IMG/VR virus record: IMGVR_UViG_3300049719_000225
Span: 34,116 to 98,115 of that record
Strand: one strand, 5' to 3'
Length of the DNA stretch: 64,000 bases
From: a virus
Position numbers and translations under genes: made by a program. The notes under the pieces were generated by a model. It saw only the letters and a program-made list of their open reading frames with translations. It made no database searches and was not told the origin of the DNA. Each line of letters begins with the position of its first letter. Position 1 is the stretch's first letter. Shown in pieces: positions 47,581 to 54,155 of this stretch.

Positions 47581-47643
47581 CGAGGGAACAAACGGACAGG
47601 GTATTGTTTCGTTCACGGAAGTAACCCTGACCTACGCCACTCG
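47581..47643 (-). ncRNA. Y RNA-like element 2 (minimal)
   Basis: CGAGTGGCGTAGGTCAGGGTTACTTC..ACCCTGTCCGTTTGTTCCCTCG. Confidence 0.72.
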
Positions 47644-51232: not shown

Positions 51233-51368
51233 ATAAAGGCTGGGAGGAGAGTGGACTGTTCACCACCCGTCCTTTCGAGCCGCCAACCGTGCCCGGATCC
51301 CAGGCCGTGCCAGCGGTGAGTCAAACAACTCGATTGCTCTGTACATCTCTGAGCTATCCTCCCGTAAA

Positions 51369-51512
51369 TGGTGCAAGGTGATGGAGTCGAACCACCGGCG
51401 TGCAGTTTGTGTATGAAGTATCCCGCGTCTACGCTACTGGTTTCCCGCCACGGTTTCCCGGGATCAGGCGACTCAGGTATGTGTTACTGTGCTACCGTTA
51501 CACTAAACTCGC
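51369..51512 (-). ncRNA. tRNA-Y RNA chimera (Y stem replaces the anticodon loop)
   Basis: tRNA 5' half, then GCCTGATCCC..GTAGCGTAGACGCGGGATACTTC, then T-arm and ACCA. Confidence 0.7.
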
Positions 51513-51592: not shown

Positions 51593-52001
51593 AAAGGGAC
51601 GGGGTTTATGAGTCCTGGAACCCCCACAGGGCGGTATGTCTCCGCTTGCTCGCACCAACGGGAGTCGAACCCGCCCCTTCTCATAGGAGGTATGCAGTCC
51701 GCCACACTCTGATGTCTGCAACAGGTGATTTCGCTGACGAAATGGTGCGTTCTTTCCCGCCGTCACAGTGCGCCACAAGGCTTCACAGGCCCCCTGCGCA
51801 TATCGTGTTTTCGTACACGTCTGGGCTTTGGAGGCCCAGAACGTCAGATTTATCTTCTGACATACCAGTGTTTTGTTGGACGAGGCCCCCATAAAATGGT
51901 GTGCCAGCAAACTCTGGCACTAAATGGAGGGGGCCGCAGGATTTTCACCTGCATTCGCGCCTTAGAAGGGCGCAGTCCTATGTGGTCATAGATGTTCAAA
52001 A

Positions 52002-52083: not shown

Positions 52084-52164
52084 CGGGGAACAAGCGGCAA
52101 CGGGTACGCCCTTGCGGGCGATCTTGTTGTTGGAATAAGAAGTATCCGTCACCTAACGCCACCG
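52084..52164 (-). ncRNA. Y RNA-like element 3
   Basis: CGGTGGCGTTAGGTGACGGATACTTC..CCGTTGCCGCTTGTTCCCCG; nearly identical to the 38378 copy. Confidence 0.75.
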
Positions 52165-53400: not shown

Positions 53401-53820
53401 TGGTGGACCTGGCGGGAGTCGCGCCCGCGTTCTCAAACCTCTTCTCAGCGTCGTCTACAAGCTTGTTCACCGTTTTGGTTTTCGTTCCCGGGATCGGCCA
53501 GTGACGGCTTACCCCGGGACTTATCTCACGCAGTCAGCCGTGTCGTCGTGAGCCAACGAGCACTGCAGCATCATTGAATAGATGGTTGATGCTGACCACC
53601 TCAGCTAGCCGTGGATCGTGTGATCAGGCGAACTGAACTGCCTCCACGTCAACGTAACCAGAGGCGGCGAGAAACTCGTCGGCCTCGGCCACGGAGGGCG
53701 CGAAGTCAGGGCTTGCGATGTTATCGTTAGCACTTGTGTTTTGGCCCCTTTTGAAAGGAGGGATCAATCCTTGCTTGCAGGCGCTGCGAATCAGCATGAG
53801 TAGAATGCTGGTACAGGCCC
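53401..53820 (-). ncRNA. ssrA: tmRNA
   Basis: GGGCCTG/CAGGTCC-ACCA with G3:U70; tag ORF 53731..53624 ANDNIASPDFAPSVAEADEFLAASGYVDVEAVQFA*. Confidence 0.9.
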
Positions 53821-54084: not shown

Positions 54085-54155
54085 TGGAGCAGCAGGATGG
54101 ACTTGAACCACCGTCTATGGGTTACCCCAAAGTTCTTTCTCTGAACTACTGCTGC
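54085..54155 (-). ncRNA. tRNA-like RNA with a GTAA tetraloop instead of an anticodon loop
   Basis: GCAGCAG/CTGCTGC-T-CCA; TGGG-GTAA-CCCA. Confidence 0.68.

What the first reader, a model, noticed from the sequence alone, without database searches (positions are those of the whole stretch)
51369..51512. tRNA-Y RNA chimera with native tRNA ends and G3:U70/A73
Seen: the RNA starts GCGAGTT-TA-GTGT-AACGGTA-GCAC and ends GGTGG-TTCGACT-CCATC-ACCTTGC-A-CCA. Its anticodon loop is replaced by the two Y-RNA strands found in the three free copies, in swapped order (GCCTGATCCC first, then GTAGCGTAG..GATACTTC). Known: YrlA RNAs have the opposite permutation, with Y-stem ends and a closed acceptor; G3:U70 and A73 are AlaRS determinants. 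Inference: a possibly chargeable Ro60-tethering RNA.
Basis: partly seen in the sequence, partly recalled or inferred. Interest (0 to 1): 0.75.

Follow-up and report, generated by a model that had tools for sequence, protein, structure and literature searches.

The report
tRNA-shaped Y RNA in phage
Among the tRNA genes of a large uncultured phage lies a 144-base RNA gene with real tRNA ends; where the anticodon loop should be it carries a capped copy of the stem that Y RNAs use to dock the Ro60 protein, a recurring design in Ro60-encoding phages that I did not find in the papers I could search.

Summary
It has an open acceptor stem, D and T arms with a canonical elbow, A73 and an encoded CCA, and it sits in register in the phage tRNA array. 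The anticodon loop is replaced by about 66 nt holding both strands of the Y-RNA stem in swapped order, closed by a GAAA hairpin.

A covariance model built only from 12 similar RNAs next to TROVE/Ro60 genes of other phages, with no window sequence, finds it as the best hit in the window (63.8 bits, E 3e-14). About 21 of 94 TROVE loci (81 viral-contig loci and 13 metagenome contigs) carry at least one such RNA. Their acceptor stem and the capped bulged helix covary.

So this is a member of a recurrent class: a YrlA-type Y RNA in native tRNA topology. Published YrlA has the opposite topology, with a closed acceptor and no free CCA.

The Ro60 link is inferred, not shown. The alanine-charging idea is weak. 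G3:U70 with A73 is real and otherwise confined to tRNA-Ala and tmRNA in this genome, but no other class member has it, and this copy has an acceptor mismatch and a 14-nt duplication.

Earlier notes of this scan report the same design on other DNA (giant viruses, large phages).

The parts
51369..51512 (-). Whole 144-nt tRNA-shaped Y RNA (W1)
   Evidence: Read directly. Best hit in the window of model R1, which was built without it: 63.8 bits, E 2.8e-14, full length.
51506..51512 (-). Acceptor 5' strand (nt 1-7), with G3 of the G3.U70 pair
   Evidence: Pairs with 51373-51379 at 6 of 7 positions. In the class this stem is 100% paired and all 7 pairs covary.
51489..51503 (-). D arm (4 bp, 7-nt loop with GG)
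   Evidence: The loop keeps GG, unlike most decoding tRNAs of the island.
51415..51484 (-). Inserted Y-RNA module in swapped strand order
   Evidence: Best hit in the window of the module-only model R2, built from 19 RNAs of other loci: 21.8 bits, E 0.04, full length with a 14-nt insertion. Found by the swapped-order motif expression.
51461..51466 (-). Conserved 3'-strand hexamer (UGAUCC here, UGUUCC in the free copies). Its last two C pair with GG at 51448-51449.
   Evidence: The equivalent pair covaries CG:10 / UA:9 with no mismatch in 19 relatives.
51451..51460 (-). Cap: 3-bp stem closed by a GAAA tetraloop, where free Y RNAs have their open 5'/3' ends
   Evidence: Read directly. Relatives have a 2-4 bp stem with a GNRA-type loop at the same place. 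The first cap pair covaries CG:9 / AU:7 / UA:3.
51448..51450 (-). Bulged U followed by GG: the 5' strand of the bulged helix
51434..51447 (-). 14-nt tandem duplicate of the cap unit (a second GAAA mini-hairpin); specific to this copy
   Evidence: Read directly. Both models align it as an insertion.
51415..51433 (-). Rest of the Y 5' strand: CG, the UAGAC linker, a 4-5 nt stem strand and the AUAC-UUC junction motif
   Evidence: Aligned to the class consensus. The stem strand pairs with 51474-51477. The junction motif corresponds to the YUAY of YrlA (PMC4201824).
51380..51396 (-). T arm (5 bp, canonical 7-nt T loop)
   Evidence: Nearly all decoding tRNAs of the island have UGCRA- or AGCRA-type loops instead.
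51369..51379 (-). Acceptor 3' strand, A73 and encoded CCA
36895..38319 (-). Phage Ro60 (TROVE) gene, 474 aa, the presumed protein partner
   Evidence: Pfam TROVE, E 8e-17. The 474-aa form is on record. Matches the solved Thermus phage phiLo Ro60 structures 9KOP/9L5Y, E 9e-17.

Best explanation
W1 is a working non-coding RNA of the Y-RNA/YrlA kind, written in native tRNA topology.

Proposed route:
1. It is transcribed within the minus-strand tRNA array.
2. The enzymes that mature the neighbouring tRNAs release it: RNase P at G1, and 3' trimming to the encoded CCA.
3. It folds into an L-shaped tRNA-like body with a canonical D/T elbow.
4. Its anticodon arm continues into a Y stem of about 60 nt: a short stem, a conserved internal loop and a helix with a bulged U, closed by a GAAA tetraloop.
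5. The phage Ro60 (TROVE) protein docks on that bulged helix, as it does on the free Y RNAs of the same phage.
6. The tRNA-like body is the effector-facing or gating module, as proposed for YrlA.

The tRNA topology gives the RNA defined ends inside a tRNA operon and a free CCA end.

What is shown: the sequence anatomy, class membership, recurrence beside TROVE genes, and covariation of the acceptor and of the capped helix.

What is inferred: expression, processing, Ro60 binding and function.
For: - Anatomy, and register with the tRNA array.
- R1, built from 12 RNAs of other loci, scores W1 at 63.8 bits (E 2.8e-14). The best ordinary tRNA in the window scores 49.3 bits, and only by deleting the Y part.
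- R2, the Y module only, puts its best window hit exactly on the insert.
- Class recurrence: non-seed hits of 58-110 bits in 94 TROVE loci, all on the TROVE strand and mostly within 1 kb of the gene.
- Covariation across the tRNA frame: 92% of cells paired against 78% in shuffles; acceptor 7/7 and T stem 4/5 pairs changed on both sides.
- Covariation in the capped helix: 100% paired across the bulge, CG/UA 10:9 and CG/AU/UA 9:7:3.
- Five loci found from the RNA motif alone all have a TROVE gene next door.
- Free copy A lies in the leader of the window's TROVE gene.
- The 5'-strand motif is GGCGAAG in several relatives, which is the published GNCGAAN0-1G (PMC4201824).
- A phage Ro60 homolog has been shown to bind phage Y-like RNAs (PMC12135203).
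- W1 keeps the canonical elbow, while the phage's decoding tRNAs do not.
Against: - There are no expression, processing or binding data.
- W1 is the weakest clear member: one acceptor mismatch, only about 3 bp of anticodon stem, a 14-nt duplication, and 64 bits against 75-126 for most others.
- It lies 12.9 kb from the TROVE gene, not beside it.
- The closest complete relative (TROVE 68% identical, 205 kb) has no such RNA, so no ortholog was found with which to test conservation of this copy.
- Thermodynamic folding does not favour the model: z-score 0.11, and class model -16.9 against MFE -39.9 kcal/mol.
- R2's E-value of 0.04 is modest and rough.
Confidence: 0.6

Rival explanations
1. W1 is a decaying, non-functional copy of the tRNA-shaped Y RNA class: a pseudogene carried along in the tRNA array.
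For: - Acceptor mismatch U6xC67 and the G3.U70 wobble, where all other members have 7 perfect pairs.
- A 14-nt tandem duplication inside the Y strand.
- A weak anticodon stem.
- The lowest model score among clear members.
- The neighbouring W2 (51238-51363) is even more degenerate, at 12.8 bits.
- No such RNA in the complete relative G002.
Against: - It keeps all 28 columns that are invariant in the 13-sequence alignment.
- It has an intact capped bulged helix using the first duplicate.
- The T and D arms are intact, and the encoded CCA and array spacing are exact.
- The duplication adds a clean second GAAA hairpin rather than disrupting a helix.
Confidence: 0.2
2. W1 is alanylated. G3:U70 and A73 make it an AlaRS substrate, so it is a charged, tmRNA-like or EF-Tu-binding Ro60 tether.
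For: - G3.U70 with A73 and an encoded CCA.
- In this island, of 38 other tRNA-like genes tabulated, G3.U70 occurs only in the three tRNA-Ala genes and in the tmRNA, all with A73.
- From established knowledge: G3:U70 is the major AlaRS identity element and works in minihelices and in tmRNA.
Against: - No other class member has G.U at 3:70, so it is not a selected feature of the class.
- 2:71 is C-G, not G-C.
- The same stem has a mismatch, which suggests drift.
- G.U pairs are not rare in acceptor stems of this island.
Confidence: 0.12
3. W1 is a tRNA gene interrupted by an intron or by an inserted mobile Y-RNA gene, and yields a decoding tRNA after removal of the insert.
For: - The tRNA frame is complete with CCA.
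- Rfam's tRNA model calls many class relatives as tRNA with a long insert.
Against: - No 7-nt anticodon loop is restored by removing the module, in W1 or in relatives.
- The insert is about 66-85 nt, with no group I or other intron family hit.
- An inserted Y gene would be in native, not swapped, strand order.
- The insert is conserved and covaries as a structured module.
Confidence: 0.04
4. The tRNA-ended reading is an artefact of phase. The real RNA would be a classical closed-acceptor YrlA spanning the 3' half of W1 and the 5' half of W2, as at junctions of tandem YrlA units.
For: - In bacterial TROVE loci the R1 hits I inspected are exactly such junctions of tandem classical units (L275, L277, L263).
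- W1's 3' acceptor strand could pair with W2's 5' strand at 5 of 7 positions (my reading).
Against: - That reading leaves W1's 5' half orphaned, directly after a complete tRNA-Pro.
- W1's own acceptor pairs better (6 of 7) and ends in A-CCA plus the island's trailer.
- Single-unit members elsewhere (L166, L179, L173, the L223 group) have no flanking T or D arm that would allow the other phase.
Confidence: 0.04

Closest known systems
YrlA (Y RNA-like A; Rfam RF02553; Chen et al. 2014, PMC4201824; Wang et al. 2018, doi 10.1101/312249)
   Same: - A Ro60-binding stem fused through the anticodon-stem position to a tRNA-like body with conserved D and T arms.
- A shared 5'-strand motif: GNCGAA-type in relatives, with one or two changes here.
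- A YUAY-like junction motif.
- Encoded on the same strand as a TROVE gene, and found in phages.
   Different: - The topology is the reverse. Here the 5'/3' ends are in an open acceptor stem with encoded CCA, and the Y stem is closed by a tetraloop.
- YrlA has its ends in the Y stem and a closed acceptor, and 'lacks a free CCA end'.
- The Rfam model does not detect W1.
- W1 lies 12.9 kb from the TROVE gene, inside a tRNA array.
[quoted passage not shown]
   Same: It ends up with an open 7-bp acceptor stem and a CCA tail on a Ro60-bound tRNA-like RNA.
   Different: There the open acceptor arises by cutting a closed loop, which leaves two RNA pieces with open Y-stem ends. Here one continuous RNA is encoded with a capped Y stem, and the CCA is genomic.
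Free Y RNAs: metazoan Y RNAs, D. radiodurans Yrn1, and phage phiLo Yrl1/Yrl2 (PMC12135203)
   Same: A helix with a single bulged nucleotide on the 5' strand, followed by two pairs, as the presumed Ro60 site. Several copies per genome, near the Ro60 gene.
   Different: In those RNAs the helix is formed by the RNA's own termini. Here the termini side is a hairpin cap and the module is internal to a tRNA frame.
tmRNA and viral tRNA-like structures (alanine- or valine-accepting tRNA mimics)
   Same: A tRNA-like acceptor/T domain with a free CCA. W1 shares G3.U70/A73 with tmRNA.
   Different: No reading frame or pseudoknots. The phage's real tmRNA is at 53401-53820. Charging of W1 is untested and not a class feature.

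Membership tests
YrlA (Rfam RF02553) | Match to the curated covariance model at or above its gathering score (69 bits) | tested here: not met
   No hit on W1 at the gathering threshold or at E up to 5. The swapped topology cannot fit the model. Even classical-order units of this family score below threshold (23 bits at 35796-35920; none).
YrlA (Rfam RF02553) | 5'/3' ends form the Ro60-binding stem; acceptor-like stem closed by a loop; no free CCA | tested here: not met
   W1 has the opposite arrangement: an open acceptor with A73-CCA and a Y stem capped by GAAA.
YrlA (Rfam RF02553) | tRNA-like D and T arms with conserved elbow nucleotides | tested here: met
   GG in the D loop, a UUCGA-type T loop, and the G53-C61 equivalent.
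YrlA (Rfam RF02553) | GNCGAAN0-1G motif on the 5' strand and YUAY at the junction to the tRNA-like domain | tested here: inconclusive
   W1 has GGCG/AGCG followed by UAG rather than AAG, and AUAC at the junction. Relatives of the class carry the exact GGCGAAG and UUAC.
YrlA (Rfam RF02553) | Encoded within about 4 kb of the Ro60 gene on the same strand | tested here: inconclusive
   Same strand, but 12.9 kb upstream of the TROVE gene, within the tRNA island. Class relatives lie mostly within 1 kb.
YrlA (Rfam RF02553) | Bound by Ro60/Rsr | not testable with these tools
tRNA-shaped, capped Y RNA class (defined here by models R1 and R2) | Full-length match to a model built from other members | tested here: met
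   R1: 63.8 bits, E 2.8e-14, positions 1-132 of 132. R2: 21.8 bits, E 0.04, positions 1-56 of 56. Neither model contains window sequence.
tRNA-shaped, capped Y RNA class (defined here by models R1 and R2) | Bulged-U helix (CC/CU with GG/AG) closed by a short stem and a GNRA-type loop | tested here: met
   CC, a 3-bp stem, GAAA, bulged U, then GG; covariation in relatives.
tRNA-shaped, capped Y RNA class (defined here by models R1 and R2) | Perfect 7-bp acceptor stem | tested here: not met
   6 of 7 pairs, including one G.U; all other clear members have 7 of 7.
tRNA (Rfam RF00005 / ARAGORN) | Detected as a tRNA, with a 7-nt anticodon loop | tested here: not met
   Not called by ARAGORN or by RF00005. 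There is no anticodon loop. Several relatives are called tRNA with a long insert.
AlaRS substrates (tRNA-Ala, tmRNA) | G3:U70, A73, free CCA | tested here: met
   However, 2:71 is C-G rather than G-C, and there is a mismatch at 6:67.
AlaRS substrates (tRNA-Ala, tmRNA) | Actual aminoacylation with alanine | not testable with these tools
   Needs an enzyme assay. G.U at 3:70 is absent from all other class members.
Intron-containing tRNA | A recognisable intron type, and a canonical anticodon loop after its removal | tested here: not met
   No intron family hit. Removing the module leaves no 7-nt loop.

The most novel reading that the evidence does not exclude
The tRNA-shaped Y RNAs are true hybrids that use their free CCA end. 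W1 would be charged by AlaRS (others perhaps by other synthetases) and, through EF-Tu or the ribosome, or through tRNA repair or CCA-adding enzymes, would bring the phage Ro60 ring to the translation or tRNA-maintenance machinery. That would be an aminoacylated Y RNA.
Probability: 0.1. Interest if true: 0.85.

Novelty: new variant of a known kind. Interest (0 to 1): 0.62.

Why it matters
Y RNAs and Ro60 are conserved from bacteria to humans, and what the tRNA-like half of bacterial YrlA does is an open question. [quoted passage not shown]

A genetically encoded form with the tRNA's own ends shows that the two topologies are interchangeable phases of one design. It supplies natural variants for testing what the tRNA-like body recruits. 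It also suggests how phages slot Ro60 partner RNAs into tRNA operons, so that RNase P and the 3'-end enzymes mature them.

There is an annotation consequence too: such genes are either missed or called 'tRNA with insert'.

Tried and rejected
- Nucleotide search of the phage collection found only tRNA-Pro matches.
- Exact-pattern scans for a W1 ortholog in viral contigs found none.
- A neighbouring 481-aa ORF led to a 73-kb relative (L028/G001). It has a tRNA island but no TROVE gene and no such RNA.
- The complete 205-kb relative G002 has none either.
L030 (TROVE 76% identical) ends just short of the region that would hold a W1 ortholog.
- The acceptor/D-arm pattern alone is not diagnostic: it also matches ordinary phage tRNA genes (Gly, Trp and others by my reading of the anticodon loops) and intron-bearing tRNAs.
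- Single-sequence folding gives no support.
- R1 hits in bacterial TROVE loci turned out, in the three I inspected, to be junctions of tandem classical units. I therefore do not claim the class for bacteria.
- Rfam YrlA is too narrow to serve as a membership test for this branch.
- My first loose parser of the cap mis-assigned motifs; a stricter one replaced it.

Full report
**Context**

The window is part of a 98-kb IMG/VR viral record estimated at 43% complete. On its minus strand, between about 39.2 and 55.4 kb, lies a tRNA island: 33 of the window's 34 ARAGORN tRNAs (the other, at 31204, is on the plus strand), further tRNA-like genes seen by Rfam, and a tmRNA at 53401-53820. A TROVE/Ro60 gene lies at 36895-38319 on the same strand. 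It matches Pfam TROVE at E 8e-17, its 474-aa form is on record, and it matches the solved Ro60 of Thermus phage phiLo (9KOP/9L5Y) at E 9e-17.

**The object**

The reverse complement of 51369-51512 reads as a tRNA frame.
- The acceptor has 6 pairs out of 7: G1-C72, C2-G71, G3.U70, A4-U69, G5-C68, a U6xC67 mismatch and U7-A66.
- The D arm has 4 bp and a GG-containing 7-nt loop.
- The T arm has 5 bp and a canonical T loop.
- A73 and CCA are encoded, followed by the U-rich trailer found after the island's other tRNAs.
- The gene begins 3 nt after the CCA of tRNA-Pro(UGG).

ARAGORN and Rfam do not call it.

Between the D arm and the T arm lie about 90 nt without an anticodon loop. They hold first the 3'-strand motif and then the 5'-strand motif of three hairpin RNAs of this phage, at 38380-38476 (in the leader of the TROVE gene), 47585-47638 and 52086-52160. 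With my motif expressions the window gives 1 swapped-order and 3 native-order matches, against 0.007 and 0.017 expected.

**Is the motif a Y-RNA stem?**

- Five loci found in viral contigs from the RNA motif alone all carry a TROVE gene, which starts within about 30-350 nt of the motif-bearing RNAs (within 30-170 nt in L006, L083 and L154), on the same strand. Three chance matches to the pattern have none.
- Upstream of many phage and bacterial TROVE genes the same two motifs flank either a plain hairpin or a T arm, closed acceptor and D arm. The latter is the classical YrlA order.
- In several relatives the 5' motif is exactly GGCGAAG, the published GNCGAAN0-1G. The junction motif UUAC fits the published YUAY (PMC4201824).
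- Rfam's YrlA model is too narrow to reach its threshold on this branch. The assignment therefore rests on architecture, motifs and gene neighbourhood, not on the curated cut-off.

**A recurrent class**

Directly upstream of the TROVE gene of metagenome contig L034 there are two RNAs with the same design as W1: an open 7-bp acceptor, D and T arms, and swapped Y strands joined by a 2-bp stem and a GCAA loop. Eighty TROVE loci from viral contigs yielded many more.

I built model R1 from 12 of them, with no window sequence.
- On that alignment 92% of cells are paired, against 78% in shuffles and 39-46% with slid partners.
- All 7 acceptor pairs and 4 of 5 T-stem pairs show changes on both sides.
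- R1's best hit in the window is W1: 63.8 bits, E 2.8e-14, full length. Ordinary tRNAs reach at most 49.3 bits, and only by skipping the Y part.
- Over 94 TROVE loci (81 from viral contigs and 13 metagenome contigs), R1 finds non-seed members at 58-110 bits. All are on the TROVE strand and mostly within 1 kb of the gene, and about 21 loci have at least one.

A module-only model R2 was built from 19 sequences of other loci. It shows that the helix across the bulged U is 100% paired, with CG:10/UA:9 at one pair and CG:9/AU:7/UA:3 at the next. Its best hit in the window on either strand is the W1 insert, 51415-51484, at 21.8 bits and a rough E of 0.04.

The cap is a 2-4 bp stem with a GNRA-type loop in most members.

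**Anatomy of the W1 module**

Reading 5' to 3' along the RNA:
1. a 4-nt stem strand;
2. an AGU linker;
3. CG, then CC;
4. the hexamer UGAUCC, whose last CC pairs with GG further on;
5. a 3-bp stem with a GAAA loop;
6. the bulged U and GG;
7. a 14-nt tandem duplicate of the cap unit, specific to this copy;
8. CG and the UAGAC linker;
9. the partner stem strand;
10. AUAC-UUC.

This geometry is the same as in YrlA: the tRNA-like body sits on the apical side of the Ro60-type stem. Only the position of the chain ends differs.

**Comparison with the literature**

- Wang et al. [quoted passage not shown] - Chen et al. (PMC4201824) showed that M. smegmatis YrlA is cut by RNase P and receives CCA, which gives two pieces.
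- I found no paper describing a continuous, genomically encoded tRNA-topology form. Two reviews could not be read.
- Earlier notes of this scan describe the same design in giant viruses and large phages. I treat those as leads, not as evidence.

**Caveats**

- W1 is the least tidy clear member: an acceptor mismatch, about 3 bp of anticodon stem, the duplication, and a middling score.
- It is 12.9 kb from the TROVE gene.
- No ortholog was found. The complete relative G002 lacks the class, and L030 stops just short of the region.
- Single-sequence energetics do not favour the model.
- R1 also hits junctions of tandem classical YrlA units in bacterial loci. A phase artefact therefore had to be excluded. 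For W1 it is excluded by the complete tRNA-Pro directly upstream and by W1's own A-CCA end. For other members it is excluded by the absence of flanking T or D arms.

**Charging**

G3.U70 with A73 is, in this island, otherwise exclusive to the three tRNA-Ala genes and the tmRNA, which is suggestive. Against it:
- every other class member has a Watson-Crick pair at 3:70;
- 2:71 is C-G;
- the stem shows drift.

I put alanylation at roughly 0.1.

**Verdict**

The chimera reading is supported. W1 is best seen as a member, possibly a somewhat degenerate one, of a recurrent phage class of YrlA-type Y RNAs in native tRNA topology. Ro60 binding and any use of the CCA end remain to be tested.

Noticed in passing
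window:51238-51363 (-): Directly downstream of W1 lies a second tRNA-framed RNA (W2). It has a perfect 7-bp acceptor, a D arm, an odd 8-nt T loop and no CCA, and it carries a more degenerate swapped Y-like module. R1 gives it only 12.8 bits (E 0.23).
   Followed up: partly
window:38380-38476, 47585-47638, 52086-52160 (-): Three free Y-like hairpin RNAs share the 5' and 3' strand motifs but have different apical parts. The first lies in the leader of the TROVE gene and overlaps the long ORF call, so the real protein start is further downstream (474 aa).
   Followed up: partly
window:35780-35990 (-), next to 36050-36817: A classical-order permuted tRNA-like RNA (T arm, closed acceptor with CCCA, D arm) follows a DUF7873 gene just downstream of TROVE. 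Rfam YrlA scores it 23 bits, below threshold. Earlier scan notes tie such RNAs to DUF7873 rather than to Ro60.
   Followed up: partly
window:39600-55350 (-): Nearly all decoding tRNAs of the island have T loops of the UGCRA/AGCRA type instead of UUCRA, and D loops without GG. W1 and the tRNA-like gene at 54085-54155 keep the canonical elbow.
   Followed up: partly
window:51593-52001 (-): The 409-nt gap between tRNA-Pro and tRNA-Phe holds several CCA-ending oddities: a 7-bp minihelix followed by ACCA (about 51897-51920), a tRNA-like piece at about 51925-51998 whose matching 5' acceptor strand seems to lie downstream of it, and a T-arm-like element at 51641-51676.
   Followed up: no
window:51506-51525 (-): The 3' acceptor strand of tRNA-Pro(UGG) and the 5' acceptor strand of W1, separated by ACCA-UUU, are complementary over 5 consecutive pairs. 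This could be chance, a precursor structure, or a trace of origin.
   Followed up: no
L002:3284-3385 (+): Right after the TROVE gene of a 48%-identical relative lies a 102-nt tRNA-like RNA with a perfect acceptor, ACCA, a short hairpin at the anticodon position, and a long extra arm preceded by GCCGAA. It may be another tRNA-topology Y variant. ARAGORN misses it.
   Followed up: partly
L275:3990-4300, L277:200-480, L263:4450-4720 (+): Bacterial MAG TROVE loci carry tandem classical YrlA-like units with near-identical acceptor stems, so a tRNA-ended model also matches across unit junctions. The two topologies are the two phases of a tandem repeat, which suggests how one could evolve from the other.
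   Followed up: partly
window:42716-42800 (-): A CCA-ending tRNA-like gene with a long body and no clear anticodon loop, missed by ARAGORN.
   Followed up: no
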